Positions 4,761 through 59,405 of a DNA stretch of 64,000 nt are shown piece after piece. Origin of the DNA: a virus. The position numbers and the translations under genes are program-made. Numbering within the stretch: the stretch's first letter is position 1; every line of letters begins with the position of its first letter. Under the pieces are notes generated by a model that saw only the letters and a program-made list of their open reading frames with translations, was not told the DNA's origin and made no database searches. The stretch is from IMG/VR virus record IMGVR_UViG_3300031885_000006, positions 12,890 through 76,889 of that record; one strand, written 5' to 3'.

Positions 4761-4790
4761 CATTATACGCCAAAAATATCATTTGTAAAG
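4761..4790 (-). promoter_or_regulatory. Sigma70-type promoter of rsr (TTTACA-N16-TATAAT)
   Basis: Both hexamers visible; 29/30 nt identical to 59376-59405. Confidence 0.8.
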
Positions 4791-4802
4791 TTGAAGAGAA
4801 AA

Positions 4803-5072
4803 TTATTCTGTAATTTCTTCAACACATACAGTTATATTGGAGGCACGATTGACGATTTCATCTCTGCGAGCGTCCATTGCCGAAACAATTTGAGTTTCTA
4901 CAGATTTCACCACAAAAGAACGATTGGTGGTGGCTTCGACACGAAAAGGAATCGCACCAATACAATTCAAAATCTCACCAACATACGGAACCCTATCATC
5001 TGAATAAACAAATTCAAGCCGACCATCAAGTTGGATTTCAATGTCAAATTTAAATTGATTCATAAGGGACAC
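4803..5072 (-). CDS. Hypothetical protein
   Basis: 89-aa ORF filling the gap between ligA and rsr. Confidence 0.55.
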   Translation of the reverse strand: MSLMNQFKFDIEIQLDGRLEFVYSDDRVPYVGEILNCIGAIPFRVEATTNRSFVVKSVETQIVSAMDARRDEIVNRASNITVCVEEITE

Positions 5073-5078
5073 ACATAA

Positions 5079-7226
5079 TTAAGAAAGGTTCAGGATTTTT
5101 TTCAACTCATCGACCGAAATCAACGAAATTCCTAGCTTTTTGGCTTTTTCCGCCTTTGAACCGGCATCGACGCCTTCGACCACGAAATTCGTCGTTTTTG
5201 ACACACTAGAACCGCATTTTCCGCCCTGTTCTTCGATCAAACCCTCATAAAACTTCTTCCCCTTATCAAATCCACCTGTCAGCACGAAATTCTGCCCGGT
5301 AAGTGGACCCGTTTTAGGCAACTCAGGTTCGATAAATTTTAGCAATTCTTTGATGCCCGGCTCATGGCTGGTCAGGTATTCATTGACCAGCATAGCTGTT
5401 TTAATGCCTACGCCTTCAACGGCTGCTAATTGTTCGTCGCTGGCAGCCATAATTTTATCTAAGCTACCAAAATGATCGACCAATGCTTTGCCCGCACTTT
5501 TTCCGGCGCTTTCAATTCCAAAAGCGGCAAATAGTCGCCACAACGGAACAACCTTTTTATTCTTTTGTGCTTTGACGATAGCTTTCTGCAAATCATCGTC
5601 TTCCATCTGATCGGGGCTATCGATCATATGAATTCCAGCTACAGCTAGCATGCCTTCTCGTTCTGAGAGGCCAGAATGGCGACATTGCTGAACAGTTAGT
5701 TTATAAAAATCAGCAAAATGTTTAATCCATCCACCAGCAACCAAATCAGCCACTGTGGATTCTCCCAATCCCAAAACACCAATTGTTTTAAGAAAGTGTA
5801 AAAGTCTGCTGATATTTTTAGCCGGGCAGTCGTCGTTAATGCACATCAACTCATACATATCGCCACCCGATGTTGGCGTATGTTTAACATGCGTTTTTTC
5901 GCCACAGGATGGACAACTGCGTGGGTAATTAATTTCTTCAACCTGAAGATAATCGACTTCTCCACCCGCAACACCGACAACTTTGGGGATAATTTTGCCA
6001 GCTTTTAGAACAATAATTTTCGTTCCAACTGCAATTTTATTTCTAAAAATGAAGCCAACATTATGCAAAGTTGCTCGACGAACTTGGGTGCCTGCCAAGG
6101 GGACCGCATCAAAAATAGCAACAGGTTTAATTGCCCCTGTACGGCCTGTGTTCCACTCAATAGAAGAAACTACAGGGTTGGCTCGTTCTTCAGCGAATTT
6201 CCAGGCAATCTTTCCTTTTGGAGTACCAGTTTTGGGATCTCCGCTACGTCCCAATTGTTCTTGATCTTCTAGATTATTGACGCCGATTACAACGCCATCG
6301 ACTTCATAATCCAGATTAGCAACATTCGCCTCCATTTCGGCTAAATCATAGAAATTGAATTCTTTAATTTGCACAAAGGGGATGCCCAATTCTTTATTGC
6401 AGAATTTGGCACGCTCAATTTCAGTTTTATAAGGCGGGCTATCAATTCCTTCAACGGAATAACCAATAAAACTAAGTCGTTGGTCTTTAACTTTAGCGGG
6501 CTCTTTAAACTGACGAATTCCACCTGCGGTGTGGTTGCGAGGATTGGCACGAAGTTGTTCGCCCAATGATGCCAATTCCTGTTGAACCTTATTGAAATCT
6601 GATAACTTGCAAATCAATTCACCACGAATTGAGCATGTGATCGGCAACTTCAATTCTTCAGGAATATCATGAACATATTTTACTTGTTCGGTAACATCTT
6701 CACCGTGAACGCCATCTTTTGGCCGTAGCCCGGCTTTAACCAATTTGCCTTTTTCGTAATACAAGCCTAGAGCAACGCCATCAAGTTTGTAACTTTGATA
6801 AAACGTATTTCTTGGATAGGTGACAACTTCGTTGTTGAAGGTACGTTCTTTTTGTTGAACGCCATCAATTTCTTTGGCAGCCAAATCAAAAACTTTATTT
6901 TTACCATCCAATTCAACGGTGCAATCGTTCAGCCACTTAAAAAGCTGCTCTTCTTGGACATCAAGATCTTCGTGACTTGCTTTAGCAATACTGGTGAGGG
7001 GCGGATGATGCTTCATCTTTTTGACGGCACTACTGGCCTTGGATGCCGTCACGGTATCGAACAATTTGGCATTTGGATTCAAAGCCTTCAATGCTCGACG
7101 CATCGAATCATATTCACCATCACTAACGATTTCACCCGTATCTGGATGAGTACAATCATCACCCACTTCATAAAGTGTGTCTAGGTGAGCGATAACACGT
7201 TCTAATAATTGAGCTTGAGTTTCCAT
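5079..7226 (-). CDS. ligA: NAD-dependent DNA ligase
   Basis: KLDG adenylation motif, RGE, DGVV, TGRTG, ATLHN, KAGKIIP, Zn finger CPSC..C..C, HhH and BRCT. Start moved to ATG 7226 (GGAG upstream). Confidence 0.95.
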   Translation of the reverse strand: METQAQLLERVIAHLDTLYEVGDDCTHPDTGEIVSDGEYDSMRRALKALNPNAKLFDTVTASKASSAVKKMKHHPPLTSIAKASHEDLDVQEEQLFKWLNDCTVELDGKNKVFDLAAKEIDGVQQKERTFNNEVVTYPRNTFYQSYKLDGVALGLYYEKGKLVKAGLRPKDGVHGEDVTEQVKYVHDIPEELKLPITCSIRGELICKLSDFNKVQQELASLGEQLRANPRNHTAGGIRQFKEPAKVKDQRLSFIGYSVEGIDSPPYKTEIERAKFCNKELGIPFVQIKEFNFYDLAEMEANVANLDYEVDGVVIGVNNLEDQEQLGRSGDPKTGTPKGKIAWKFAEERANPVVSSIEWNTGRTGAIKPVAIFDAVPLAGTQVRRATLHNVGFIFRNKIAVGTKIIVLKAGKIIPKVVGVAGGEVDYLQVEEINYPRSCPSCGEKTHVKHTPTSGGDMYELMCINDDCPAKNISRLLHFLKTIGVLGLGESTVADLVAGGWIKHFADFYKLTVQQCRHSGLSEREGMLAVAGIHMIDSPDQMEDDDLQKAIVKAQKNKKVVPLWRLFAAFGIESAGKSAGKALVDHFGSLDKIMAASDEQLAAVEGVGIKTAMLVNEYLTSHEPGIKELLKFIEPELPKTGPLTGQNFVLTGGFDKGKKFYEGLIEEQGGKCGSSVSKTTNFVVEGVDAGSKAEKAKKLGISLISVDELKKILNLS

Positions 7227-7228
7227 GT

Positions 7229-7408
7229 TTATTCTCCTACTAGACGGCATCGCCATGCTTCGACGATAGAATCGTCTTCCTCAAAAGAAAAAGCTGGCTT
7301 CCCCAGGGGGTGTTCCACCACGTCTTTTACGGTGTTGGCTTTATAACTAGATTTAAAAGGTTTGCCGGAAATCTTGACTACTTTTTTACCAATATATTCT
7401 TCAAACAT
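7229..7408 (-). CDS. Small hypothetical phage protein (59 aa)
   Basis: Hand-translated MFEEYIGKKVVKISGKPFKSSYKANTVKDVVEHPLGKPAFSFEEDDSIVEAWRCRLVGE; fills the gap exactly. Confidence 0.7.
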   Translation of the reverse strand: MFEEYIGKKVVKISGKPFKSSYKANTVKDVVEHPLGKPAFSFEEDDSIVEAWRCRLVGE

Positions 7409-7410
7409 AA

Positions 7411-7761
7411 TTAGGCATCCATAAGGTTGTGATTCGTCAATTTCTCGACGAACCTAATTGCGTACTTCCAGCCTTTATCATCTGGAGTGAAGCGGGCAAT
7501 CGGATAAACGTAGTTTTCTTTTTCATCACCAAAATGTGGATCTAGATTTTTTTGTTTGACCAGATCTACAAATTTAGCTTCATAGACCAGAATTTTCATG
7601 CCATTGTGATTTTTGCAATCAGGGTATCGCAGTTTCAAGATGGCGAAGCCACCATGCTCAAAACAATCGACTAGATCCCACTTGGTGGGATCGGGAACTG
7701 ATTCATTTTTATAGACAATCTGGTATTCTACATCCCTGTGTCTGCTGCCGTAGATGCCCAT
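7411..7761 (-). CDS. Hypothetical phage protein
   Basis: 116-aa ORF with TAATG coupling to infA. Confidence 0.7.
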   Translation of the reverse strand: MGIYGSRHRDVEYQIVYKNESVPDPTKWDLVDCFEHGGFAILKLRYPDCKNHNGMKILVYEAKFVDLVKQKNLDPHFGDEKENYVYPIARFTPDDKGWKYAIRFVEKLTNHNLMDA

Positions 7762-7982: not shown

Positions 7983-7995
7983 TTGCTCTCCTAAA

Positions 7996-8023: not shown

Positions 8024-8024
8024 C

Positions 8025-8246
8025 TTATTCTTCGTGAAGTTCAACCATGACTGTTCTGGAGATATCTCCAGATCCATTCCAACCATAAAGATATTTTTTA
8101 TTATGCCACTTAAAAGTCACCCAGCTTTTAGACAACTCTTTAATTTCGGTTGAATTTGGCGGAAGTTCCTGTTGCCATTGCAACAAACGACCTTCTGGAG
8201 TCGTACAGCCACAGAGCAACAAGCTAATTAGAAATAGCTTTTTCAT
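8025..8246 (-). CDS. Small lipoprotein
   Basis: MKK, hydrophobic stretch and lipobox LLCGC. Confidence 0.6.
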   Translation of the reverse strand: MKKLFLISLLLCGCTTPEGRLLQWQQELPPNSTEIKELSKSWVTFKWHNKKYLYGWNGSGDISRTVMVELHEE

Positions 8247-8890
8247 TGATGATGATCTCCTGTAGTGTGACCGGGTCTGTCCTTCAATATGTCTATGACT
8301 TCTTCTAACGCAAATGGCCGATAAGCTCCCAACAATTTGGCGGCATTATCAACGCCAATATCCATTGAACGCCGACCGGGCATGATTTTATCAGCCCATC
8401 GTTCAGCAGTGCTATGGCTATGAGCATAGCACAGGATCGCTTTATGATGATGCTTATTCCAAATAGCCCCACAATAATGATCAAATACAAAGAATTGATT
8501 ATTATATGTGGTAAACGCTCTATGCCCATTCGTCTCAAATATCGAAGGCATATCATCATAAAAGTCATGATTGCCAAAAATCTGATGGACTCGCCTGCAA
8601 TTAATCCGATCCCTAAATCTTTTTACTGTTTTGTAATAATCGTATTTAGCACCAAAGCAAAAGTCACCAACATGATAAAGTTCATCATCTTCTCCAACTA
8701 GCTTGTTGATTTCATCAAAAAGGTAGTCATTCATCCGTTCAACGGACTCACGACTAACCCTAAAATCAACTCCTTCATCTAGTTGCTTTTGTTCTTTTTC
8801 ATTCAACCCAGGACGCCGACAATACTTCATGATGTTCGCATGATTTATGTGAAGATCTGAAGTTACGAATTTTCTTCTTTCTTTTTTCAT
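8243..8890 (-). CDS. Calcineurin-like metallophosphoesterase
   Basis: SDLH, VGDF, GNHD and AHSH motifs. Confidence 0.88.
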   Translation of the reverse strand: MKKERRKFVTSDLHINHANIMKYCRRPGLNEKEQKQLDEGVDFRVSRESVERMNDYLFDEINKLVGEDDELYHVGDFCFGAKYDYYKTVKRFRDRINCRRVHQIFGNHDFYDDMPSIFETNGHRAFTTYNNQFFVFDHYCGAIWNKHHHKAILCYAHSHSTAERWADKIMPGRRSMDIGVDNAAKLLGAYRPFALEEVIDILKDRPGHTTGDHHQ

Positions 8891-8897
8891 GCAGCAT

Positions 8898-8925
8898 ATT
8901 CTACCACATAAATTCGATTTGTAAA
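8898..8925 (-). promoter_or_regulatory. Promoter TTTACA-N16-TAGAAT
   Basis: Hexamers lie directly upstream of the ATG at 8890. Confidence 0.6.
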
Positions 8926-14127: not shown

Positions 14128-14640
14128 CTATGCCGCCATTGTCATCTTGACTGTATCTCTTGCAGATTTAAGCACTTGAGATATTCTTGATTCCGAGACA
14201 CCAATTTTGCAGCCAATTTCTCTCATAGACATTTCATGCACATAATACATGATTAATATGTTTCTATCAAGATCAGTTAGCTTTTTTGTTGCATCCTCAA
14301 AAAAATCATTGCTATTATTTTCTTTTTGAGGAATAGATTCTGCTAAGCTATTCCCATTTTCGTCAGTTTGATCTAAAGATATTCCATATCGTGAACTAGC
14401 TTTACATGCATTTCTAACAAAGTCTTTGATTTCTCCGACAATACGCCATCTAGCATAAGTGCCAAAAGAACTCTTAGATGGGTTGTATTTTTGAGCAGCG
14501 TCTACCAAGCCAAAATAAGCCGCCGATTGTATATCATCAATATCAACTTTTTTTGGCAATGATTTTTTCCTTTCAAAAACAATAGATTTAGCCAGTGGAA
14601 GATAGTTTTCAATAAGTTGATTTCGTTCTGTAATAGTCAT
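14128..14640 (-). CDS. Sigma-70 family (FliA/WhiG-like) sigma factor
   Basis: LIENYLPLA, GLVDAAQKYNP, FGTYARWRIVGEI and MSMREIG..IGVSESRISQ. Confidence 0.9.
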   Translation of the reverse strand: MTITERNQLIENYLPLAKSIVFERKKSLPKKVDIDDIQSAAYFGLVDAAQKYNPSKSSFGTYARWRIVGEIKDFVRNACKASSRYGISLDQTDENGNSLAESIPQKENNSNDFFEDATKKLTDLDRNILIMYYVHEMSMREIGCKIGVSESRISQVLKSARDTVKMTMAA

Positions 14641-20700: not shown

Positions 20701-20728
20701 TTCACAATCCTAAAATCTGTGGTATAAT
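20701..20728 (+). promoter_or_regulatory. Promoter TTCACA-N16-TATAAT for the RNA ligase-map operon
   Basis: Both hexamers visible. Confidence 0.7.
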
Positions 20729-20772
20729 CAATGAGCATAAAAAAACTCGATTTGAATTTTAGGTTGTTTATA

Positions 20773-22113
20773 ATGAGCGAATACAATACCACTCAATCTC
20801 AAAAAGACAATATCCGCACGATCATTCAGAAGCTAATCGCTGATGATAAACGCTGGTTTATCGACAATCTCATTATTGTTGGCGATAAAGGTCCATATTG
20901 GATTTTGAATTACCAGCAGGGCGGTCGCAACGAATTCAACCAATTGGTTCGTGGTATGGTAGTAGCTAAACCGCCAGCAAACTTTCATGGCGACCTATTA
21001 TCGCTAATCAAATCCTTCCCATTCATCCGATTCTATAATCAGGGTGAAGGCGATGCTGCGCATGTTGACTTCTCCAATGCAGAAATGCTTGAGAAAATGG
21101 ACGGCACGATGGTTGGTGCGTTCTTCCCAACGGGAGATCCAACTAAGCCGGAATTCCACACTCGCAAAATGATGTCAACTCATGAGCCAGACGTGTCACG
21201 ACAAATGACTACGTTCCAGGGCAAAGACGCTAAGTTTTTACCAACCATTCGCCCTTATGTCGATCAATTGAAATTCACTCAGAAGGATGTGGACTACACA
21301 TACGTCTTTGAGTTCTTGCATGAGATTTCGTATGTTCTCACCAAATATCAGCCGCACCAGTATGGCTTGTATTTGTTGGGTGCCCGAAATATCAAAACTC
21401 ACCAAGAAATGAATGAAGATGAATTAGATCAAACCGCAAAACGACTTGGAGCAAACCGTCCTCGCCGTTTTGTATTGGGAAATAAAACTTCACAACCAGA
21501 TCCTATGTTCGGGGCAGAACGTAGTGGCGCTAAAATCGCAACGCATGCGGAAATTGAAAAAATGTTCCAAGATGCGGCGGCTGAAACTCCAGACTTTGAG
21601 GGCTTCGTTTTCCGAGATAAACAAAGCGGAAATCGAGTCAAAGTTAAAGATCCAAAATATGTAGAAAAACATCACTTGTTAGACAGCCTGTCTTACAAGC
21701 GGCTTATTCCTCTATTGCTTAAGGGAGAAGAAGAAGAGATAGTGGCTTACTTCCCTCAGGCAAAAGAGCGTATCGAGGAAATTAAAACTGCCTACAACAA
21801 ATATCTCAACAACGTTGTCGATACCGTCCAAGCATGGCAGCGGTCGGGTTTTGTAGGTAAAGAATTAGCTTTAAGAATTTTCGGACCAGAAAGTTCTGCT
21901 ATGGATAAATTCACCAAGAATATGTCCAAAAAATTTAATGACGTGCGAGATGTAGATGCGATTCGCAATGGCGTAGACGCACAACTTAAACAAATTGCTT
22001 TAGGCACCGGCAAAGATGGAGGTGGTGGTAGCCCAAAACGATTAATTGAGCTAATTGGATTGCATGACGATGAAGAAGAAGAAAATAACAACCCTAATGT
22101 AGGCGAACTATGA
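20773..22113 (+). CDS. T4 Rnl1-like RNA ligase
   Basis: RG, PF.RFYN.GE, motif I EKMDGT, FE, EGFVFRD and RVKVK..YV..H. Start 20773 preferred because the promoter ends at 20728. Confidence 0.8.
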   Translation: MSEYNTTQSQKDNIRTIIQKLIADDKRWFIDNLIIVGDKGPYWILNYQQGGRNEFNQLVRGMVVAKPPANFHGDLLSLIKSFPFIRFYNQGEGDAAHVDFSNAEMLEKMDGTMVGAFFPTGDPTKPEFHTRKMMSTHEPDVSRQMTTFQGKDAKFLPTIRPYVDQLKFTQKDVDYTYVFEFLHEISYVLTKYQPHQYGLYLLGARNIKTHQEMNEDELDQTAKRLGANRPRRFVLGNKTSQPDPMFGAERSGAKIATHAEIEKMFQDAAAETPDFEGFVFRDKQSGNRVKVKDPKYVEKHHLLDSLSYKRLIPLLLKGEEEEIVAYFPQAKERIEEIKTAYNKYLNNVVDTVQAWQRSGFVGKELALRIFGPESSAMDKFTKNMSKKFNDVRDVDAIRNGVDAQLKQIALGTGKDGGGGSPKRLIELIGLHDDEEEENNNPNVGEL

Positions 22114-22856
22114 TACGGATAAAAACAGCAGAACAAATTGAAGGCATTAGAAAAAGCAGCCAATTGGCCGCTCAAACCCTTGTGCATCTTGAACAATTTG
22201 CTCAACCGGGTGTTTCCACAGCCACAATTGATCAAGAAGCCGATACGTATATTCGTGATCATGGTGCCATTCCAGCATGCTTGGGATATCGTGGATTTCC
22301 AAAATCCATTTGCACATCTCTAAACGAGGTCATTTGTCATGGCATCCCTTCAGAATATATTCTGAAGGAGGGCGACATTCTCAATATCGATGTCACCACC
22401 ATTTTAGATGGTTATTTTGGAGATACCTGTAAAATGTATCCAATTGGAGCAATCACATCAAAAGCCCAAGGATTGCTAGAGACCACCAAGGAATGTCTTG
22501 AACTTGGAATTAAAGAGTGCAAACCAAACAATCTCTTCGGAAACATTGGCTTTGCTATCAACAAACATGCCACCAGTCTTGGCTTTTCTGTAGTTTATCA
22601 ATTCGTAGGTCATGGAGTTGGCCTAGAATTCCATGAAGAACCAAACATCAATCATGTCGCCAGAAGAAACACTGGTGAGGTTATGCGGGCAGGAATGATC
22701 TTTACCATTGAACCTATGATTTGTACAAAGGCTCCCGATGCCGTCATTCTAGAAGATGGATGGACCGCTGTAACTAAAGATGGCGGATTATCTGCACAAT
22801 ATGAACACACCATCTTGATTACAGATGATGGTCATGAAGTTCTTACATTATTGTAA
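22110..22856 (+). CDS. map: Methionine aminopeptidase type I
   Basis: CTSLNEVICHGIP, DILNIDVT, GDT, GHGVG..FHEEP, FTIEPM and SAQYEHT. Confidence 0.97.
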   Translation: MIRIKTAEQIEGIRKSSQLAAQTLVHLEQFAQPGVSTATIDQEADTYIRDHGAIPACLGYRGFPKSICTSLNEVICHGIPSEYILKEGDILNIDVTTILDGYFGDTCKMYPIGAITSKAQGLLETTKECLELGIKECKPNNLFGNIGFAINKHATSLGFSVVYQFVGHGVGLEFHEEPNINHVARRNTGEVMRAGMIFTIEPMICTKAPDAVILEDGWTAVTKDGGLSAQYEHTILITDDGHEVLTLL

Positions 22857-25525: not shown

Positions 25526-25797
25526 TTAAAATCCCACACACTGTTAAAATCAGATGGTGTAACATAATTGCTACGAGATGGTGGTGGAGCCTGTTGATTC
25601 TTAAAGAAATTAGGATCGACTTTATCAGGATCAAATCCTGGGTTGTATGGACCGGGCGAATATTCCCTGCGCATTTCTTTGATTACTTTTTCAGTAACTT
25701 TATCAACCACCAATTTACCACCGATAGTGCATATTCCCAAGACTACGGCAAAAACTAAAATGGCTGTCACGGCGTTTTTATTCAGATTTATGTTCAT
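25522..25797 (-). CDS. Small membrane protein
   Basis: One TM helix and a Pro-rich tail. Confidence 0.6.
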   Translation of the reverse strand: MNINLNKNAVTAILVFAVVLGICTIGGKLVVDKVTEKVIKEMRREYSPGPYNPGFDPDKVDPNFFKNQQAPPPSRSNYVTPSDFNSVWDFN

Positions 25798-26836
25798 ATG
25801 ATTCCCCTGAATATATATTCAAGAGATTATTGAATTCCAAAATCTCTTTAGTTGGATATTTCTCCTCCAACTCTGCCAATTCTTGCAATTTAACAACATA
25901 TTCTTCTGAAAGGTCGGTCGGAGTTTGGGCGACCAATAAAACAATTAGATCTCCCGTATGTCCTTGTTCATCCACAATGCCCTTACCACGCAATTTCAAT
26001 TGGGCACCATTTGATGTTCCGGCAGGGACTTTAGCAACAAACTGTTCTTTCAAAGCAGGCACTGTAATATCGCCACCCAATGCCAATTTAGAATAAGAAA
26101 CTGGGATTTTGCAGTGTAAATTCAACCCGTGTCTTTGAAATATAACATGAGGCCGCACATGGATAGTAACATACAAATCGCCCCGACGACCAGATCTATC
26201 ATAGTCGCCTTTATGTCTTAACCGTAACGTTGCTCCGGTATCGACTCCAGCCGGAATTCTAATCGACACATCTTCATCAGGAAGGGGCTTAAAACCTTCA
26301 TTGCATTCACTGCATTTATCAGTATTAATTTTTCCATTGCCGTTACAAACATTACAAGGCGTTTGAAAAAAAGAATGACCAGAGCTTACTACTCTTACAC
26401 CTTTGCCGCCACACTCATTGCATGTAGTCGATTGCATCCAGCCGACAGCATTGCATGTTTGGCACAATTCTTTAGCAATTGCCTGAATATCTTTATTGCA
26501 ACCTTTAGCGGCCTCAATAAAATCCAACTCAATGTGCATTTGCATATCGAGTTGGATTTCACGTCGTCGTTGAGGACCAACAGAACCGCCAAAAATTTGA
26601 GCAAAAAAGTCCATTGGGTTTCCCTGATGCTGATACGGATTATCGTATCTAGCCCTTTTTTCAGGATCGCCCAAATGCTCATAGGCTTCACTTACTGCTT
26701 TGAAACTCTCAACCGCTTCTGGGTTGTTGGGATTCAAATCAGGATGAAACTGTCTGGCTAGTTTTCTATAAGCCACAGAAATATCATCGGCATTAGCATC
26801 TTTGCTAAGCCCTAATATTTTATAATAATCTTTCAA
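25778..26836 (-). CDS. dnaJ: Chaperone DnaJ
   Basis: DYYKILG, HPD, CxxCxGxG-type repeats and the C-terminal domain. Confidence 0.93.
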   Translation of the reverse strand: MKDYYKILGLSKDANADDISVAYRKLARQFHPDLNPNNPEAVESFKAVSEAYEHLGDPEKRARYDNPYQHQGNPMDFFAQIFGGSVGPQRRREIQLDMQMHIELDFIEAAKGCNKDIQAIAKELCQTCNAVGWMQSTTCNECGGKGVRVVSSGHSFFQTPCNVCNGNGKINTDKCSECNEGFKPLPDEDVSIRIPAGVDTGATLRLRHKGDYDRSGRRGDLYVTIHVRPHVIFQRHGLNLHCKIPVSYSKLALGGDITVPALKEQFVAKVPAGTSNGAQLKLRGKGIVDEQGHTGDLIVLLVAQTPTDLSEEYVVKLQELAELEEKYPTKEILEFNNLLNIYSGESYEHKSE

Positions 26837-27856: not shown

Positions 27857-28972
27857 TTACTCCCAAAAACTAATAAAGTAAACCTTGCCATCTTTTTCAC
27901 CTAACAAAATTGGGTGAATGCATTTTTCTTCGATTAACATAGTATCTAAATTGAATTTAGTTGAATTTTTCGTCTTGTTTGGCCAAGTAATTGCAATTCC
28001 AGGCACAACAGCAATAAATTGATCAAAAATTGGCTTGAAATTAGCCTCTGGCATCGCCTCTAGATGGACGATGATTCTTCCAATGTTTTCTGAATGAGTT
28101 ATAGTATGTGCAGGATAGGTCATCGGTTGATAGAAATAATCTGCCGCTCTAGTAGGCTCAAAATTAATGCCCGTAAAATTGCTACCCGGCATAGTGATTG
28201 TGCTTGTTATGCCATTAAATACACAATTATGCATTTTGGACAAAATAATTGCCGCATTTGCTATCGATATTCTTTGAAAACCATAATATCGATCTTCAAA
28301 TGATTCAAATTCTTTTAACGAATCCAAAATCTCACTACACATCGATTCTAATCGCAGTTGTTTATAAACTTCTGCTCGTTGTTTAATTTTATCAACTTGG
28401 CACTGATGATAGTTATCAAAACGACTGTAAGCTTCTAAATCTTCAACGCTATCCCAAATAACAGATGCTTTTTTGAGAGATAATGGCAAATCAATTTGTC
28501 TGGCTATTTTTGATGCTCGGAGTCTAGTGCGATCCGATTCTTCTTGGAAAAGTCTAATATATTGCTGTTGATTTTTCAGAAAATTAAAAGACCACTTCAA
28601 ATCTTTAAAAACAGCCTTAGCAATACACTTAGAAAAATTAGGCAAAATTTGATCTAATTCTTTCTCTTCCGCCAATGAGACTAATTCTAAGAATTGTATT
28701 AGTTTGTTGGATGCAGTGGCATCTAACATGAAATTAGAAAAAAAAGCGCCTGATTTAATTTCAGGATGATCGAAATCTACATCTTGAGCAACTTCATACA
28801 ATCTAGAACCAAAGTCGGCCAATGCTAAATCGCAAGTGTGACGACCAGCTTCTAGAATTTTTTTGAAAATATTGGGATATGATTCCGTTGTTTCTGAGGT
28901 TTCGGCTATTTCAAAAATTTTAGGCAATAGACGATTTTGTATATCAGAAAATTTAGACATTGCATTTATCAT
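27857..28972 (-). CDS. Hypothetical protein
   Basis: 371-aa ORF. Confidence 0.65.
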   Translation of the reverse strand: MINAMSKFSDIQNRLLPKIFEIAETSETTESYPNIFKKILEAGRHTCDLALADFGSRLYEVAQDVDFDHPEIKSGAFFSNFMLDATASNKLIQFLELVSLAEEKELDQILPNFSKCIAKAVFKDLKWSFNFLKNQQQYIRLFQEESDRTRLRASKIARQIDLPLSLKKASVIWDSVEDLEAYSRFDNYHQCQVDKIKQRAEVYKQLRLESMCSEILDSLKEFESFEDRYYGFQRISIANAAIILSKMHNCVFNGITSTITMPGSNFTGINFEPTRAADYFYQPMTYPAHTITHSENIGRIIVHLEAMPEANFKPIFDQFIAVVPGIAITWPNKTKNSTKFNLDTMLIEEKCIHPILLGEKDGKVYFISFWE

Positions 28973-40034: not shown

Positions 40035-41159
40035 CTATTTCATTAAAATACGATTGATTCTTTTAGTTTCTTTTTCGTTATACAGATCCCAAATTTTGAT
40101 TTTGGTCTCATCATCATCTTCTTCTTCGATACTACCACCAGCTAAAGGATACTTATACGCTCCTTTACCTAGTTTACCACCACCGCAGCCAAATTTACCA
40201 GCAAATTCTTTGCAAAGATCTGGCACCATGATACTGGCATTGCGACTTCGCACGCTGCCCTCTAGCCGGTCGCCTTCCACCATCGCAAAAGCCACGGCTG
40301 TATTGACATCTTCCCAAGCCAACATGGAGTCGGCCATATCGGCAATCATATCCCGATGTTTAGCCGGAATGATACCCAAACCAACAATTCCCAAACCATC
40401 ATTTACTAAAGCATTTTTAACCGCTTCGGCCTCATGATCTATCCAGAACTTTGGTTTCTCCCAATGAATAATTTTTTTGATGACATTCAAACTTCGAAAC
40501 TCAAACAACTCTGACCATGCGTCAAACTCATATTGAGTAGCATCATCGGACATGAGTGATTCGGTGTCGGTAGAAATGCCCACCATCATACCAGTGGCTA
40601 TTTTACTATCGTTATCATTATCGTCTTCAAAGTGAAAGCTTTCTGGTGGTCTGGCAGCATCTTTGACCGCACGCATATTCTGCATGCTTTTTATTAGATG
40701 ATAGATTGTGCCACAACAACTGCCAGCTTTAATGTTGATAAACAAACCATTAAATCCACCATTAGGGATTTCTCGATGGTGATCAACAACCAAATCAAAT
40801 TTGATCAGATGTGTGCCAACCCCTGCATTCGCAGGAACTGTGTCCACCAAAATGTGAAAGCCATATTCCTCTGGCTTGTATAAATCTATCGTTTTGAGAT
40901 TGGGATCTAGCAAATTCACCATTGCTCTATTTTGAGGATGGGAAATTGTGCCGTCGTAGAAAGATTCTGACTCTATACCATATTTCTGCAAGAGCCATTG
41001 AATCCCCATAATACTACCGATGGCATCGGGATCTGGGGTGGCATGCGTGAACAAAGCTGCTTTGGTATCTTTTTTGGCCTCAAGCAACTTCAAAAAGTTC
41101 TTGAAATAGGCTGCATTCCCAGTATTACGAGGTTCTGAAACCTCTTTTTCGTCTTCCAT
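40035..41159 (-). CDS. DHH/DHHA1 phosphoesterase (NrnA-like)
   Basis: H..PDPDAIGS, LVD, VDHH, GISTDT, SVRS and GGG; SD GAGG before ATG 41159. Confidence 0.88.
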   Translation of the reverse strand: MEDEKEVSEPRNTGNAAYFKNFLKLLEAKKDTKAALFTHATPDPDAIGSIMGIQWLLQKYGIESESFYDGTISHPQNRAMVNLLDPNLKTIDLYKPEEYGFHILVDTVPANAGVGTHLIKFDLVVDHHREIPNGGFNGLFINIKAGSCCGTIYHLIKSMQNMRAVKDAARPPESFHFEDDNDNDSKIATGMMVGISTDTESLMSDDATQYEFDAWSELFEFRSLNVIKKIIHWEKPKFWIDHEAEAVKNALVNDGLGIVGLGIIPAKHRDMIADMADSMLAWEDVNTAVAFAMVEGDRLEGSVRSRNASIMVPDLCKEFAGKFGCGGGKLGKGAYKYPLAGGSIEEEDDDETKIKIWDLYNEKETKRINRILMK

Positions 41160-41198
41160 TTTTTCCTCTATGAACAAAATCGTTTCCGTCCACAAAGC

Positions 41199-41226
41199 AT
41201 TATACTACGGAAAACGACTTTGTAAA
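41199..41226 (-). promoter_or_regulatory. Promoter TTTACA-N16-TATAAT
   Basis: Hexamers visible upstream of the DHH gene. Confidence 0.7.
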
Positions 41227-43517: not shown

Positions 43518-43907
43518 TCAAAGATTTAAAAGAGAAATACTTGTCCAGTGCGGATCAGCAGGAATGTTCTGAGGGTCTGTGTAGTAAAACAGTTCGATCT
43601 TATATTTGTAAGGCTTCTCCAAAACTTGCTCTTTTGTCATGCCCCCAACTAAATCTTCTGCTATTTGCTTGGGAACCAAAACGGAATCTATTTCAGAAGC
43701 ATGCAATAAATTTTTCATGATCTGTGATGCAGCCACGCCTTTATTGGGCATATACAACAGATCAATCATTTGCTTCTTTTCATTACTTGCTACAAAATCA
43801 GCCATCGCCGAATAACACACCATCACCTGCCCTTTTTTTGGCGTATGCAGACGAACATCAAAAAAATGCTGGTCGAAGTTGTCTTTATCTATAACTAATT
43901 CTTCCAT
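43518..43907 (-). CDS. Hypothetical protein
   Basis: TAATG-coupled to the dnaE C-terminal piece. Confidence 0.65.
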   Translation of the reverse strand: MEELVIDKDNFDQHFFDVRLHTPKKGQVMVCYSAMADFVASNEKKQMIDLLYMPNKGVAASQIMKNLLHASEIDSVLVPKQIAEDLVGGMTKEQVLEKPYKYKIELFYYTDPQNIPADPHWTSISLLNL

Positions 43908-46276
43908 TACACCACCAAAACGTTCTTTAAATTGATAAGATTTTTAGGAGAAACCAAAGATTCCACTTTGTCTACTTCGTCTAACTGAGATGGCCTAGCC
44001 AAAACAACAATTCTATAATCTTTGTTCTTGTCTTTTGGAATTTCTTTCCACCTATTTTGTTTTGCCGGGGCATCAAATGTATAACTCTGCCAACCTTGCT
44101 CAGGTTTTTTCAAACGAATGCTTAAAAAATTACCTTTTCTAACATCGCTTTCCCAATATTCCAATTCCTCTTTAAATCTATCATAATCATCAGACCAAAA
44201 AGTAATCATTTGAGATTTAGAGTTGGCATCTTCTACTAAAACCGTGTAATACACAGTTTTATTTTTAGACTTAGATTCTTTTCTTCTGGGTCTTTCAATC
44301 ACATGGACTTCACATGCTTTTGTTGTAATCGTCTCGTCTTCATCAAAGTCAAAAAACGTCCTGTCGCCTTGGAAATCAGGACTGCTTTCTAACAAATGTC
44401 GCCAACTAAATCCATAGAATTTACTCTCGGCGATCTGAGGAACTTCGCACAAAAGCTCTTTCATTTCCACAGTCAATTCCGTTGCCGACTCAAAATCTTC
44501 CAAAGAAGCAATGCCATCCAACTCCAATTCTGCATTTGATTTTGTTTTTTTGTACTTTTTAACCACTTTCCAAAGCGTTCTGATTTCTGATTCTTCTAAC
44601 AACTTCCAAGGGCAATCAGCACCCTGCATGTACTCAATGAACGCTCTTTCTGTATCAAACTCTGCTGCATCTTTTAGAAAACTCATATATTTTTCGTCTA
44701 CCGTGAACTCTTTAAGCTGCTTAACAGACATCTTTGCTTTAAGTGCCGAAAACATTAAAAGTAGTTTGTCTCTTGAAGATATATCTGGTCCTTCTGGACC
44801 TTCGATTTCTTTTACATCTGATAAAATCAACTCGACCTCTAATGCGTATTTCTTATAGCTTTCCTCAGTCCGCTTCACGCTATCAGTTAGTTTTTTAACT
44901 TCCGCTTTGTAATATTCATAATACAAATACAGCTTGACCGGATCGCCTTCAAACACTCGCAAAGCAATTAACGCCTTAACAACATTTGCTTCTGTGCCAA
45001 ATCTCTTTAGAAAATCTTCAAAGTCTCTATATGGCTGCCCCGCCACTATCCTCGCCGCTATTTCCTCCCCCACACCCTTGATATTGGAAAACCCCATGTA
45101 AATGGCATCATCAACAATATCAAACTTTACTTTAGACTTATTTAATGTGACACGACCAATGCTGATTCCCATGCTTTCAGCTTCTTGCCGATAGCCTTTT
45201 AGCTTCGCCGTATCATCGCAACAACTTAAAATAGCTGTAAAAAACTCCAAAGGATAATGTGCCTTCAACCACAACAATCGACTAGAAACATAAGTATAAG
45301 CAATGGTGTGCGACTTATTAAAACCATATTCGGCGAAAGCCTCAATTTGATCCCACAATTCGGATACCCGAGCCTCATCCCAGCCTAAAATCTCTTGGCC
45401 ATTCTTTAAAAACATTTCTTTGTAACGACCAAATATTTCTATCTTTTTCTTAGAAATAGCCTTTCTTACAATTTCACAGTGCATATCTGGCACATTGCCA
45501 ACCGCACGTAAAATCTTCATAACCTGCTCTTGATAAACCATCACGCCATATGTCATTCCCAAAATTGGCTGCAACACTGGGTGCAAAGTGTATTTTTCGT
45601 GACCACGTTTTCTTGCCACAAAAACATCATGCATTCCCAAACCCATCGGTCCTGGTCTATACAAAGCAGAATAAGCTGCAAGATCTTCGAAATTATCAAC
45701 GCCACCTCGACGCACCAACTCTCGAATACCATCTGAATCAAATTGAAATATACATTTTAATTTAGCTTCAGATGCCAAGGCAATCGCAGCGGGATCATCT
45801 AAGTATGCTGTGTCGCTCCAGTCGGATTGACCGGGCAAGGCACATATAGAAGTCACACCATGTCGTTCTTTAATAATACGACATGCAATTGCAATCTGCA
45901 TTAAATTGGTAATTACCAATAAATCGAATTTAATTAGCCCAAGTGGGCCTAAATCCGTACCATGCAAACCTTCTACAAAGGCAGAAGTTGGCAAACCATC
46001 CTTGCCACGTACCAATGGCACCAAAGCATTAATTGGACGATCAGCTATAATTAATCCAGCAGCATGCGTTCCTGCACCACGATTACGATGCAATAATCTG
46101 TGAGCGGCATCCGCAACATCTGGGTTTTCATCACAATAAGTCTTGAGATCAGGATATTGCTCCATCGCTTTATCCCAAGTCAAATTGTTGCCATCGTCAT
46201 CCTTCAGTCCTATTTTTGTAGTGATCTTTAAGATATCACTACGATCTTTGCCATGTACACGAACCATATCGATCAA
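43907..46276 (-). CDS. dnaE: DNA polymerase III alpha, C-terminal piece (thumb, fingers, HhH, OB)
   Basis: HAAGLII, LIKFDLL, FQFDS, ALYRPGPM, YQEQVM, FAEYGFNKSH, LKAHYPLEF and IKGVG. Confidence 0.93.
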   Translation of the reverse strand: MIDMVRVHGKDRSDILKITTKIGLKDDDGNNLTWDKAMEQYPDLKTYCDENPDVADAAHRLLHRNRGAGTHAAGLIIADRPINALVPLVRGKDGLPTSAFVEGLHGTDLGPLGLIKFDLLVITNLMQIAIACRIIKERHGVTSICALPGQSDWSDTAYLDDPAAIALASEAKLKCIFQFDSDGIRELVRRGGVDNFEDLAAYSALYRPGPMGLGMHDVFVARKRGHEKYTLHPVLQPILGMTYGVMVYQEQVMKILRAVGNVPDMHCEIVRKAISKKKIEIFGRYKEMFLKNGQEILGWDEARVSELWDQIEAFAEYGFNKSHTIAYTYVSSRLLWLKAHYPLEFFTAILSCCDDTAKLKGYRQEAESMGISIGRVTLNKSKVKFDIVDDAIYMGFSNIKGVGEEIAARIVAGQPYRDFEDFLKRFGTEANVVKALIALRVFEGDPVKLYLYYEYYKAEVKKLTDSVKRTEESYKKYALEVELILSDVKEIEGPEGPDISSRDKLLLMFSALKAKMSVKQLKEFTVDEKYMSFLKDAAEFDTERAFIEYMQGADCPWKLLEESEIRTLWKVVKKYKKTKSNAELELDGIASLEDFESATELTVEMKELLCEVPQIAESKFYGFSWRHLLESSPDFQGDRTFFDFDEDETITTKACEVHVIERPRRKESKSKNKTVYYTVLVEDANSKSQMITFWSDDYDRFKEELEYWESDVRKGNFLSIRLKKPEQGWQSYTFDAPAKQNRWKEIPKDKNKDYRIVVLARPSQLDEVDKVESLVSPKNLINLKNVLVV

Positions 46277-56965: not shown

Positions 56966-57045
56966 GTATTTCCCTAAAAATGAATTGGGTGAATGCACAC
57001 CCTACCATATACATCGTAACTTGTAAAGCTATACTTTAGCGGCAC

Positions 57046-57456
57046 TTACTTCAATCTGCCTAATGTCAGATGAAAATTAAACTTTTTATGAGGCAATCCT
57101 AAAGCATCTCTAAAAACATGAAGTTGCGGACACCAAACATCCAGCCAAGCATGACAATTGTTATCAGTTCGCACAATATTAGAATAATAAAATTTTATTC
57201 TGTCATGCTTAAATCCCCAAAGATTTTTGTTTTCAGGTTCTTCACCTTTAACCCAACTAATGTGCGGACCCCAAGCATTGCCCTTGTCTATTGGTTTTCC
57301 CCATTTGTGACAAAGCCATGAATAAAAATCAATAATCCCATGAGCCTCACAAATAACCAAGCTCCACCAAGGCTCATATAATTTGGGATCGTTTTTACGA
57401 GGATCATAAACGATCCTGCCATATGAATAATATGGAAAATATGTTTCGCTTCTCAT
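57046..57456 (-). CDS. 2H phosphoesterase-like protein
   Basis: Two Hx(S/T) motifs, PHISW and FHLTL. Confidence 0.6.
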   Translation of the reverse strand: MRSETYFPYYSYGRIVYDPRKNDPKLYEPWWSLVICEAHGIIDFYSWLCHKWGKPIDKGNAWGPHISWVKGEEPENKNLWGFKHDRIKFYYSNIVRTDNNCHAWLDVWCPQLHVFRDALGLPHKKFNFHLTLGRLK

Positions 57457-57484
57457 TATCGGGAATCGGCTGATGCTTTCATGT

Positions 57485-57754: not shown

Positions 57755-57835
57755 AACATTCCTTTGTATTTGTTATTTTTAAACTTTTGCCGTCCATGTT
57801 ACCTCGCTAAATTAGTGGCCCGTTTTTCATAATAG

Positions 57836-58393
57836 CTATGCGCCGAAGGCGTTGTTTTCCACTACCGCCCGACAAAATTTCAAAACTTCTTGCCCTGCCC
57901 ATCCATTTTTTGCATATTGTGCAATTAAAGCGACAAATTGAATATTATCTTTAGTGTATCCTTTAGAACTATCTATTCTATCTAAACTTGCACGATCTGG
58001 TGTCGTTGACAAACATGTGCCATTCGTTGTTTTTTCTGAAATTTTCAATTGCCAACCTGTATAAGGACAAATCCCTTTCTGTTTTTCCCATTGTGACTTC
58101 AAATCTTCCAATGTGATTGAAACAATTCTGTCTTTCTTTTTTTTACTTTTATTTCTATGTTTGCAACTTCCTTTTGCCGATGAAAGAAATTTTCTGAACG
58201 GTGAAAACTCGTCACATGTTCGCCAAGGAGTCAAATGTTCATGAACTCGCTTTTCTCCTAGATTTGAAAGGTTAACTTTACCTTGACACTCTCTAGAGCA
58301 AAAAACTCTTCTTCCTATTTTTTTATTTCTATTTACTTCACTAGTTGAACGAAAAAATTCTTTTTCGCAAACCTCACATATTAATTTTATCAT
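57836..58393 (-). CDS. Free-standing HNH-like endonuclease next to the tmRNA
   Basis: CEVC..FCS.EC, QKGICPYTG and ASLDRIDSSKGYTKDNIQFV; SD GGAGG before ATG 58393. Confidence 0.8.
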   Translation of the reverse strand: MIKLICEVCEKEFFRSTSEVNRNKKIGRRVFCSRECQGKVNLSNLGEKRVHEHLTPWRTCDEFSPFRKFLSSAKGSCKHRNKSKKKKDRIVSITLEDLKSQWEKQKGICPYTGWQLKISEKTTNGTCLSTTPDRASLDRIDSSKGYTKDNIQFVALIAQYAKNGWAGQEVLKFCRAVVENNAFGA

Positions 58394-58440
58394 AACTACC
58401 TCCACGATATGTATGCATGGAGCCGATGATAAAAACAAAA

Positions 58441-58476
58441 AAACTCCGCTCAGATACATGTATCTGAGCGGAGTTT
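58441..58476 (-). terminator. tmRNA terminator (perfect 36-bp palindrome)
   Basis: aaactccgctcagatacatgtatctgagcggagttt, followed by a U-tract on the minus strand. Confidence 0.85.
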
Positions 58477-58478
58477 AG

Positions 58479-59064
58479 TGGAGCCGAGGGGAGTCGATAT
58501 TCCCCACACCTATTACTAGGTGAATGGACTATATCATTGCCATAGCTTTTCAGCCTTAGGCATCGGGCGCTTATCTGGTTATTAAGAGGGCTAAACCTCT
58601 CCAGTAGTCTCTACACCTTCCTGCGATGTATCGCAAGCTTGGCTCGGTATTGCCCCAGAGGGGTTTCACCGAATTCACCCAATATTTTTTTCTAAACCTT
58701 TCGATTTAGATGGGCTCGACTTCCGAACCCCTTTCCAGAATAACTTGTAAAAAGACCTCTACATGCTTGTCTTATTGTTTTTGCTTTCGCATCTCGCCAT
58801 TCGTGTCCACATAAAGCTAAGGACAATTCACAGCCAGCAGAATCTTTGTCTCGTTTAGGTATCTCTGCGTGAACCTAAACCAGCCGGATTTTTTTTCAGG
58901 TTTTCAAGACGCTACCAGCATCGCTTCTATCAACCTGTCGCCACCTTAAGCAGCGAGAGCTAGAGTGTTGCCTGTTAAGGCTTGAACGATTTTTAAAGCG
59001 GCCCTTCGTTCAACCGCTGCATGCCATCTATCTACTGCATTACCTGTCGATGCCTGACGGCCCC
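58479..59064 (-). ncRNA. ssrA: tmRNA, intron-interrupted; tag peptide (A)GNTLALAA
   Basis: Acceptor stem GGGGCCG/CGGCUCC-A with G3:U; T-arm AGGGG-UUCGACU-CCCCU after intron removal; pk1-like knot; tag frame 58972-58946 ends LAA-UAA; 357 nt spliced; CCA not fully encoded. Confidence 0.93.
58498..58726 (-). mobile_element. ORF-less group I intron (229 nt) in the tmRNA T-loop
   Basis: P1 GGGUUCG/CGAGCCC with U:G; P/Q AAUUCGGUGAAAC..AAUACCGAGC; P7 GAGACUA/UAGUCC; P3 GGGUG/CGCCC; P9 CACCUA-GUAA-UAGGUG. Confidence 0.9.
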
Positions 59065-59070
59065 ATAAAG

Positions 59071-59195
59071 GACGCCTCATGTTCCGCTAGCCAGTCGCCA
59101 TCTGGTCAATCTAATCCCCTTATCTTGCGGTCGTCTTCACCGCCTTACGGTTAAGCCCAGGCAAACGGGCACTTTAGCGTCATGAACTAGGTGTC
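59071..59195 (-). ncRNA. Unassigned ~125-nt structured RNA just upstream of tmRNA
   Basis: Nested closing stems GACACCU/AGGCGUC, GUUC/GAAC and CGCUA/UAGCG enclose several hairpins; GC-rich with no ORF in the track. Confidence 0.55.
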
Positions 59196-59214
59196 AACAG
59201 TCTTTTTTCAACCT

Positions 59215-59370
59215 CTACCCGTGTCCTTGTCACATAGTAATCAAAAATAGGTTTTCGTCAATAGCTCTTATTCGGAGGACGCAAAACACGGAAAACCTTA
59301 ACCCTGTTTCGCCACTTCCTCTCCACTACTGACGGGTCTGCCGCTAGGAACTTTCGTTCTTCGGGCAGGT
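59215..59370 (-). ncRNA. Unassigned ~155-nt structured RNA at the 5' end of the tmRNA transcript
   Basis: CUGCC..GAAC-GAAA-GUUC..GGCAG, AGGUUUUC/GAAAACCU, CGUCAGUAG/CUAUUGACG and CCGUGU/ACACGG. Confidence 0.55.
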
Positions 59371-59375
59371 AGTTT

Positions 59376-59405
59376 CATTATACGCCAAAAATCTCATTTG
59401 TAAAG
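59376..59405 (-). promoter_or_regulatory. Promoter TTTACA-N16-TATAAT of the ncRNA/tmRNA locus
   Basis: 29/30 identical to 4761-4790. Confidence 0.8.

What the first reader, a model, noticed from the sequence alone, without database searches (positions are those of the whole stretch)
4761..59405. Ro60 and the tmRNA/ncRNA locus share a near-identical 30-bp promoter: a candidate RNA-repair/ribosome-rescue regulon
Seen: cattatacgccaaaaatatcatttgtaaag (4761-4790) and cattatacgccaaaaatctcatttgtaaag (59376-59405) lie 54.6 kb apart and differ at one base, spacer included. Other promoters of this class share only the hexamers. The window also encodes an Rnl1-like ligase, a 2H phosphoesterase, a DHH nuclease, a metallophosphoesterase and ClpP. 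Known: Rsr is linked to RNA repair, and tmRNA with ClpXP clears stalled ribosomes. Inference: this is a co-regulated phage system countering host RNA-cleaving defences.
Basis: partly seen in the sequence, partly recalled or inferred. Interest (0 to 1): 0.8.

Follow-up and report, generated by a model that had tools for sequence, protein, structure and literature searches.

The report
Multi-copy strong promoter of a giant phage
The Ro60/Y-RNA operon and an intron-split tmRNA gene of a giant phage do begin with the same 30-base promoter, but the same promoter also heads unrelated units in sister contigs, so it looks like a reusable strong-promoter cassette and not a dedicated RNA-repair regulon.

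Summary
The 30-mer occurs twice in the window (4761-4790 and 59376-59405), with one mismatch. No other copy lies in the 76.9-kb virus contig.

On the minus strand it reads C-TTTACA-N16-TATAAT-G, an 11/12 match to the sigma70 consensus. Copy 1 lies about 81 nt before Ro60 (TROVE plus vWA domains). That operon continues through a LAGLIDADG gene, a 150-aa ORF and two Y-RNA-like hairpins to a terminator. Copy 2 lies about 306 nt before a tmRNA whose T-loop holds a group I intron, followed by a strong terminator.

- The exact 29-mer also occurs in four sediment-metagenome contigs of the same phage group. There it heads three other, unrelated short units.
- Unitigs of two sediment DNA runs holding most of this locus break at the promoter.
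- At one orthologous site the spacer has been replaced outright.
- Ten other phages that encode both Ro60 and tmRNA show no promoter similarity. One relative shares a different 16-nt block.
- ClpP, RtcB and SmpB were not found. A 2H fold has only a sub-threshold motif hit.

Best reading: a multi-copy, host-type strong promoter module, analogous to the PeSL cassettes of T4-type phages. Co-expression is plausible but untested. A dedicated counter-defence regulon is not shown.

The parts
4761..4790 (-). Promoter module copy 1 (P_ro). -35 TTTACA at 4784-4789, 16-nt spacer, -10 TATAAT at 4762-4767. Predicted start near A4755.
3097..4674 (-). Ro60/Rsr orthologue, 525 aa, with an AAGGAA ribosome-binding site and a leader of about 81 nt.
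   Evidence: Pfam TROVE 4e-11 and vWA_Ro60 8e-9; PHROG 850 1e-34; thousands of homologues
2188..3042 (-). LAGLIDADG-type homing endonuclease gene inside the Ro60 operon.
1739..2191 (-). 150-aa ORF with no family match, in the Ro60 operon.
1672..1727 (-). Y-RNA-like mini hairpin 1 (CCGGAAUGC ... ACUCGUCCGG).
   Evidence: a sister copy at L014:1790-1712 gives a weak Rfam YrlB match, 32.8 bits
1603..1658 (-). Y-RNA-like mini hairpin 2 (CCAAGAAUGC ... ACUCGUCUUGG).
1563..1590 (-). Intrinsic terminator that ends the Ro60 unit.
   Evidence: sequence read
59376..59405 (-). Promoter module copy 2 (P_tm). -35 at 59399-59404, -10 at 59377-59382. Predicted start near A59370. An A/T tract GAAAAAATTC lies upstream.
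59065..59370 (-). Leader of about 306 nt between the promoter and the tmRNA 5' end. No family match, no terminator, no significant fold.
   Evidence: (z = -1.03)
58727..59064 (-). tmRNA 5' exon. Acceptor strand GGGGCCG; the tag frame reads GNTLALAA-stop.
   Evidence: Rfam RF00023, 62.1 bits against a cut-off of 47; ARAGORN calls a tmRNA after in-silico splicing
58498..58726 (-). Group I intron in the T-loop, 229 nt. The splice register is ambiguous by 3 nt because UCG is repeated at both junctions.
   Evidence: Rfam RF00028, 74.2 bits; sequence read
58479..58497 (-). tmRNA 3' exon. It restores T-arm GGGGUUCGACUCCCC and acceptor strand CGGCUCC plus A. CCA is not encoded.
58441..58476 (-). Strong intrinsic terminator (16-bp stem plus T-run) that ends the tmRNA unit.
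57836..58459 (-). HNH/endonuclease VII-like gene just after the tmRNA. It is conserved at this place in relative G002 (51% identity).
41199..41226 (-). Promoter-like site TTTACA-N16-TATAAT before the DHH gene. Its spacer is unrelated to the module.
8898..8925 (-). Promoter-like site TTTACA-N16-TAGAAT before the metallophosphoesterase gene. Its spacer is unrelated to the module.
20701..20728 (+). Promoter-like site TTCACA-N16-TATAAT before the Rnl1-like ligase gene. Its spacer is unrelated to the module.

Best explanation
The 30-mer is one copy-family of a strong, host-type (sigma70-like) promoter module. It consists of an A/T tract near -45, TTTACA, a fixed 16-nt spacer and TATAAT. This giant-phage clade reuses the module at several self-contained transcription units. 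In the window it starts two such units, each ending at its own terminator. One is the Ro60 operon: Ro60, a homing endonuclease gene, a 150-aa ORF and two Y-like RNAs. The other is the precursor of an intron-containing tmRNA. That precursor must then be cut at its 5' end (by RNase P, inferred) and self-spliced. Because the core promoters are the same, the two units are probably read by the same polymerase holoenzyme with similar strength and timing, most likely early. This holds equally for the other units that carry the module, so the sharing reflects reuse or copying of a promoter cassette and not a dedicated Ro60-tmRNA circuit. Shown here: the sequence, its copy distribution and the gene content. 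Inferred: promoter activity, timing, and how the copies spread.
For: Promoter anatomy:
- 11/12 consensus match with a 16-nt spacer, the best-scoring site in its region.
- Both copies lie on the coding strand, in gaps directly upstream of their cargo.
- No terminator lies between the promoter and the cargo, and a strong one follows it.

Multi-copy use:
- The exact 29-mer TTTACAAATGAGATTTTTGGCGTATAATG occurs in four metagenome contigs that share no other DNA similarity with the window contig.
- L021 and L022 are orthologous. There the module heads a unit of about 240 nt with its own terminator.
- In L023 it heads a 2.1-kb unit of small ORFs.
- In L024 it heads a unit of about 560 nt. Both the L023 and L024 units lie next to tRNA arrays.
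- L022 genes are syntenic with relative G002 at 28-63% amino-acid identity. The window contig shows the same range against G002.
- Two sediment DNA runs hold 81% and 67% of the sampled words of this locus, mostly as 99-100% identical pieces. Their unitigs break at 59374-59405. The loose ends there continue into the L022 and L024 flanks and into a further spacer variant.
- Five of seven copies carry a GAAAAA(A)TTTTT tract upstream.

Turnover of the module:
- L023 and L024 share 85-91% identical flanks at one site, but their spacers match at only 4 of 16 positions.

Same habit in a relative:
- G002 carries its own twice-repeated module, 22/29 identical to this one, ahead of tRNA genes.

No general link between the two genes:
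- Ten other phages with both genes show nothing above the cross-genome background.
Against: - No transcription start has been mapped. The only RNA-library evidence is one 273-nt insert inside the tmRNA body, which says nothing about the promoter.
- It is not proven that L021-L024 belong to the same genome as the window. They could come from sister phages.
- In relative G001/G002 the Ro60 and tmRNA promoters are the only two sites in 259 kb that carry CGTATAATACCTnAGT. This hints at a specific link between these two genes in a second lineage. Its score of 13 only equals the maximum of about 130 cross-genome controls.
- The fixed spacer across at least five copies could reflect a bound regulator and not simple copying.
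Confidence: 0.62

Rival explanations
1. This is a dedicated Ro60-tmRNA regulon. The conserved spacer would be an operator or a special recognition element that co-regulates RNA surveillance (Ro60 and Y RNA) and ribosome rescue (tmRNA), as a counter to host RNA-cleaving defences.
For: - The pair is the most similar promoter pair in the contig.
- In relative G001/G002 the same two genes again share a block found nowhere else in 259 kb.
- Twelve records examined encode both genes: 10 of 26 further records, plus G001 and G002, which hold the same sequence at both promoter sites.
- A phage Ro60-like protein, Bas63 gp130, is reported to counter the Ppl defence (bioRxiv 10.1101/2024.10.10.617714).
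Against: - The exact module also heads three unrelated units.
- Ten other phages carrying Ro60 and tmRNA show no shared promoter.
- The blocks shared in the two lineages lie in different parts of the promoter: -36 to -6 here, and -14 to +3 in G001.
- ClpP, RtcB and SmpB are absent from the contig, and a 2H fold is not established.
- The tmRNA leader holds no Y-like motif.
Confidence: 0.15
2. The identity is a neutral by-product of recombination. Short promoter cassettes would be copied or converted between intergenic sites by the phage recombination machinery, as proposed for PeSL elements. On this view the identity carries no regulatory meaning beyond 'a promoter is here'.
For: - The identity has sharp borders.
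- The spacer was replaced at the orthologous L023/L024 site.
- Each unit is self-contained, with its own promoter and terminator.
- The PeSL precedent is described in PMC2839356.
Against: - Both window units sit at positions syntenic with the distant relative G002, so neither is a recent insertion.
- 30 nt is short for homologous exchange.
- No conserved stem-loop accompanies the copies.
Confidence: 0.18
3. The 30-mer is not a promoter. It would instead be a protein-binding, recombination or homing-endonuclease target site that happens to resemble one.
For: Homing endonuclease genes lie in both units.
Against: - All copies have the same orientation relative to their downstream cargo and lie in gaps between genes.
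- The hexamers and their spacing are near-consensus.
- The endonuclease genes lie 0.9-1.7 kb away, and the flanks share no similarity.
Confidence: 0.05

Closest known systems
PeSL (promoter-early stem-loop) cassettes of T4-type phages RB49 and phi1 (Arbiol et al. 2010, PMC2839356)
   Same: Both are repeated intergenic motifs that match the sigma70 consensus and have an AT-rich stretch upstream. Both sit in front of small self-contained units and are associated with gain, loss or replacement of what they flank.
   Different: - No conserved stable stem-loop accompanies the copies here.
- Identity covers about 30 nt, not about 100.
- Two copies head conserved, syntenic RNA loci (tmRNA and Ro60) and not orphan ORFs.
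- Recombination between copies has not been shown.
Bacterial stable-RNA promoters of the rrn P1 type (textbook knowledge, not tested here)
   Same: Both have a near-consensus -10, a 16-nt spacer and an A/T-rich upstream element. Both are near-identical at several loci of one genome and drive non-coding RNA genes.
   Different: - No GC-rich discriminator is present, and the sequence after the -10 differs between copies.
- The module also heads protein-coding units.
- It was not found in any of about 185,000 bacterial and archaeal species genomes.
Salmonella rsr-yrlBA-rtcBA RNA-repair operon and bacterial Ro60/Y RNA loci (Chen et al. 2014, PMC4201824)
   Same: Ro60 is encoded together with small Y-like RNAs in one unit. 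That paper reports phage examples of Ro60 with Y RNAs.
   Different: - No RtcB is present.
- The promoter is sigma70-like, not the activator-dependent type of that operon (the latter from general knowledge).
- The Y-like RNAs here are hairpins of about 57 nt with only a weak YrlB match.
Intron-form tmRNA genes (tmRNA database 2025, PMC11915505)
   Same: A group I intron sits in the T-loop, and splicing restores a canonical T-arm.
   Different: - This one is carried by a phage.
- Applying the usual U(-1) rule and the terminal-G rule gives two registers 3 nt apart.
- Relative G001/G002 has the uninterrupted gene.
Bas63 gp130, a phage Ro60-like protein that counters the Ppl defence (bioRxiv 10.1101/2024.10.10.617714)
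   Same: It is a phage Ro60-like protein encoded next to tRNA-type genes, with an experimentally supported counter-defence role.
   Different: - Its similarity to Ro60 is reported as structural only.
- No relation to tmRNA or to a shared promoter is described.
- It was not compared with this protein here.

Membership tests
sigma70-type promoter | Hexamers close to TTGACA and TATAAT, separated by 16-18 nt | tested here: met
   TTTACA-N16-TATAAT, an 11/12 match, in both copies
sigma70-type promoter | Placed between genes, on the strand of the downstream cargo, with no terminator in between | tested here: met
sigma70-type promoter | Transcripts start about 7 nt after the -10 element | not testable with these tools
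   Only contigs of public runs were available. One RNA-library insert lies inside the tmRNA body.
PeSL-like mobile promoter cassette | Repeated sigma70-consensus motif with an AT-rich upstream stretch at several intergenic sites | tested here: met
   Two copies in the window plus three further loci in sister contigs. An A/T tract is present in 5 of 7 copies.
PeSL-like mobile promoter cassette | Adjacent conserved, stable stem-loop | tested here: not met
   Upstream folds are weak (-6 to -12 kcal/mol) and share no common sequence.
PeSL-like mobile promoter cassette | Recombination between copies, or gain and loss of the flanked units | tested here: inconclusive
   The spacer was replaced at the orthologous L023/L024 site. 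The two window units, however, are syntenic with G002.
Dedicated regulon (shared operator) | The shared element is restricted to functionally linked genes | tested here: not met
   The exact module heads three unrelated units.
Dedicated regulon (shared operator) | The link is conserved in other genomes that carry both genes | tested here: not met
   None of 10 further phages shows it. G001/G002 share a different 16-nt block whose score equals the maximum of the controls.
Ro60 / Rsr | TROVE domain followed by the Ro60-type vWA domain | tested here: met
Ro60 / Rsr | Partner Y RNA encoded nearby | tested here: inconclusive
   Two repeated hairpins carry GAAUGC...ACUCGUC. Only a sister copy gives a weak YrlB match, 32.8 bits against a cut-off of 97.
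tmRNA | Covariance-model match above the curated cut-off | tested here: met
   62.1 bits against 47
tmRNA | Acceptor stem with a G3-U pair, a T-arm, and a tag reading frame | tested here: met
   The acceptor strands are GGGGCCG and CGGCUCC. The T-arm is restored by splicing, after which ARAGORN calls the gene. The tag GNTLALAA was read from the Rfam register. ARAGORN's own tag guess was flagged as not identified.
tmRNA | SmpB partner | tested here: not met
   No PF01668 match in the contig. The host protein may serve, and the contig is an estimated 15% of the genome.
rsr-rtcBA type RNA-repair operon | RtcB ligase, or RtcA, encoded with Ro60 | tested here: not met
   No PF01139 match in the contig. 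An Rnl1-type ligase lies 16 kb away on the other strand.

The most novel reading that the evidence does not exclude
The invariant 16-nt spacer is a recognition element for a phage-encoded factor; the contig carries two sigma-like genes. That factor would switch on a defined set of RNA-centred units together: tmRNA, Ro60 with its Y RNAs, and units next to the tRNA arrays. This would be a phage 'translation-support' programme, in which Ro60 and tmRNA are linked in at least two lineages.
Probability: 0.12. Interest if true: 0.55.

Novelty: new member of a known kind. Interest (0 to 1): 0.3.

Why it matters
The result shows how an uncultured giant phage may launch its non-coding-RNA genes. These units appear to be read from a few near-identical, host-type promoters. 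It also cautions against inferring a regulon from one pair of identical promoters in a genome fragment, because more of the phage group's sequence changed the picture. The loci themselves remain good experimental targets: a phage Ro60 with miniature Y-like RNAs, and a phage tmRNA that needs self-splicing. The predicted start sites give precise places to test.

Tried and rejected
- The exact 28-mer and the class pattern gave no match in IMG/VR. The class pattern gave no match in about 185,000 prokaryote species genomes. So no host promoter of this sequence was found.
- GenBank phages share only the intron core with the tmRNA locus.
- The neighbouring 210-aa gene has no IMG/VR relatives.
- The tmRNA leader was tested as a hidden RNA gene. 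It has no Rfam match at E up to 10, a fold z-score of -1.03, no Y-like motif, and no similarity to the other module-driven leaders.
- A looser pattern, TTKACAAAYG-N9-GCGTATAAT, hits 21 stretches in IMG/VR, mostly unrelated. The flanking parts of the 'class consensus' are therefore generic strong-promoter features.
- Homing-endonuclease co-conversion was considered as the source of the identity and rejected, because the flanks are unrelated.
- Public RNA runs hold only small shares of the stretch, so no start site or splice joint could be read.
The promoters of the closest Ro60 relatives (73% and 66% identity) and the longer 104-kb copy of this contig could therefore not be examined.


Full report
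**Observation.** With up to three mismatches they are the only copies in the whole contig. That contig is a 76,889-base IMG/VR virus record, which CheckV rates as about 15% of a genome. Among 1,048 sites with a -10-like hexamer, this is the only pair with at least 28 of 40 identical positions; it scores 33/40. Identity ends abruptly on both sides.

**What the sequence is.** On the minus strand it reads C-TTTACA-(16 nt)-TATAAT-G, which matches the sigma70 consensus at 11 of 12 positions. It is the best-scoring promoter-like site in its region. Both copies point at their cargo.

Copy 1:
- It lies about 81 nt upstream of a 525-aa protein with TROVE and Ro60-type vWA domains.
- The unit continues through a LAGLIDADG endonuclease gene and a 150-aa ORF.
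- It then has two 57-nt hairpins that share GAAUGC...ACUCGUC, and it ends at a terminator at 1590-1563.
- A third copy of that hairpin, elsewhere in the contig, gives a weak match to the Rfam Y-RNA-like family YrlB.

Copy 2:
- It lies about 306 nt upstream of a tmRNA (Rfam 62.1 bits against a cut-off of 47).
- The T-loop of this tmRNA is interrupted by a 229-nt group I intron (74.2 bits).
- A 16-bp terminator follows.
- Joining the exons in silico restores a canonical T-arm, and ARAGORN then calls the gene.
- The tag frame in the Rfam register reads GNTLALAA.
- The leader has no terminator, no family match, no significant fold and no Y-like motif.

**The promoter class.** This is not quite right. 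A third promoter lies 3.6 kb before the window start (L014:9316-9289). It shares TTTACAAATG and GGCGTATAATG and differs only in the central eight bases. It drives a tRNA-like gene with an oversized anticodon loop. Given that shared frame, the extra identity of the Ro60/tmRNA pair is 7 of 8 central positions. By my own estimate this still has a chance of only about 5 in 10,000 per pair. The promoter-like sites before the DHH, metallophosphoesterase and Rnl1-like genes have unrelated spacers.

- One scan of JGI metagenome contigs with the class pattern returned four contigs from two samples. All four carry the exact tmRNA-version 29-mer. None has any other nucleotide similarity to the window contig.
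- L021 and L022 are orthologous to each other. The module there heads a unit of about 240 nt with its own terminator.
- In L023 it heads a 2.1-kb unit of small ORFs, and in L024 a 560-nt unit. Both of these end at terminators just before dense tRNA arrays.
- L022 genes are syntenic with relative G002 (positions 20-30 kb) at 28-63% amino-acid identity. The window contig is collinear with G002 positions 80-131 kb at 27-67%. The four contigs therefore belong to the same phage group and cover regions missing from the window contig.
- Two sediment DNA runs (X2, X3) hold 81% and 67% of the sampled words of the tmRNA locus, mostly as 99-100% identical pieces. Their unitigs break exactly at 59374-59405.
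- The loose ends at that break continue into the L022 upstream flank, the L024 downstream flank, and one further spacer variant. This is the behaviour of a repeat within those samples.
- The module was absent from about 185,000 prokaryote species genomes.

**How the copies arise.** L023 and L024 share 85-91% identical sequence around one site. L024 has the module there, while L023 has TTTACA-AGTTGAAAAAAGAGGC-TATAAT, which matches at only 4 of 16 spacer positions. So promoters at a fixed site can be exchanged wholesale. Relative G002 has the same habit. Its own module is 22/29 identical to this one and occurs twice, both times ahead of tRNA genes. The closest described parallel is the PeSL cassette of T4-type phages. 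PeSLs are repeated sigma70-like early promoters with AT-rich upstream stretches that act as promoters and as recombination sites (PMC2839356). The conserved stem-loop that defines PeSLs is not present here.

**Is there a specific Ro60-tmRNA link?**
- One observation speaks for a link. In G001/G002 (Ro60 55% identical, tmRNA uninterrupted) the two promoters are the only sites in 259 kb with CGTATAATACCTnAGT.
- That block lies in a different part of the promoter from the one shared here.
- I then collected 58 further Ro60 loci from IMG/VR and searched 26 of their records for tmRNA. Ten carry one above the Rfam cut-off.
- In none of those ten do the 350 nt upstream of Ro60 and of tmRNA share more than chance. 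Best ungapped blocks score 7-10. The cross-genome controls have a mean of 8.5 and a maximum of 13.
- The window scores 27 and G001 scores 13. Promoter sharing is therefore not a general property of phages that carry both genes.

- Confirmed: Rnl1-type ligase (20731-22113, plus strand), DHH (40035-41195) and metallophosphoesterase (8243-8890).
- Not found in six-frame HMM searches of the contig: ClpP, RtcB and SmpB.
- The 2H fold gave no match to PF13563. PF02834 gave only a 16.4-bit hit, below its cut-off, at 57040-57102.
- Lenient Pfam scans of the unassigned ORFs added nothing.
- The window does carry many translation-related genes: IF3, peptide deformylase, methionine aminopeptidase and DnaJ.

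**Verdict.** Co-expression of the two units is a reasonable inference, but it applies equally to other, unrelated units. The counter-defence regulon is not supported by anything tested here. One paper reports that a structurally Ro60-like phage protein counters a defence system (bioRxiv 10.1101/2024.10.10.617714). That keeps a counter-defence role for Ro60 itself open.

**Limits.** No transcript starts are available and the genome is incomplete. It is not proven that L021-L024 come from the same genome as the window.

Noticed in passing
L014:9100-9316 (own contig, 3.6 kb before the window start), minus strand: A third promoter of the class drives a tRNA(CAU)-like gene with a 28-nt anticodon loop. 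ARAGORN does not call it; Rfam tRNA gives 46 bits. A hairpin follows that contains UGGUCCGA, the 8-mer of the metazoan Y-RNA Ro-binding strand as I recall it. The fold z-score is -4.0. G002:139350-139443 is its orthologue.
   Followed up: partly
window 58498-58726 and junctions, minus strand: The splice register of the tmRNA intron is ambiguous. UCG occurs at both junctions. The U-G rule in P1 makes the intron end in A, whereas a terminal G requires a 5' splice site after G. The mature sequence is the same either way.
   Followed up: partly
window 4690-4717, minus strand: The Ro60 leader contains ACUCGUC-CCUCACGG-GAAU. These are the two conserved strands of the downstream Y-like hairpins, in swapped order.
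   Followed up: no
window 61125-62510 and 43907-46276, minus strand: The DNA polymerase III alpha subunit is encoded in two pieces about 15 kb apart: PHP plus the start of the NTPase domain in one, and the rest of that domain plus the finger and HhH domains in the other.
   Followed up: no
window 22110-22856, 25778-26836, 28969-29499, 35366-35872: The phage carries genes for methionine aminopeptidase, DnaJ, initiation factor IF3 and peptide deformylase. It also has two sigma-like genes (903-1484 and 14128-14640).
   Followed up: partly
L038:3724-3798 and L039:10663-10736 (relative G002): Two tRNA genes have a CUA anticodon, which ARAGORN labels 'Pyl'. They may be amber suppressors in the 259-kb relative.
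   Followed up: no
L022:1967-2974, minus strand: A DUF1559 protein with a prepilin-type N-methylation motif lies just upstream of a module copy. To my knowledge this family is expanded in Planctomycetota, which hints at the host.
   Followed up: no
window 58754-59026: A freshwater metatranscriptome run holds a 273-nt insert of the tmRNA body with two differences, at depth 28. This is weak evidence that this tmRNA or a near-identical one is expressed. DNA carry-over cannot be excluded.
   Followed up: partly
IMG/VR records G004-G029: Ten of 26 further Ro60-encoding virus records also carry a tmRNA above the Rfam cut-off. Co-occurrence of the two genes in large phages is therefore common.
   Followed up: partly
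L024:2015-2140 and L023 (minus strand, about 1.5 kb after its module): The first 120 nt or so after the L024 module are conserved in L023 at about 85% identity, with changes that look compensatory. This may be a structured leader or a small RNA.
   Followed up: no
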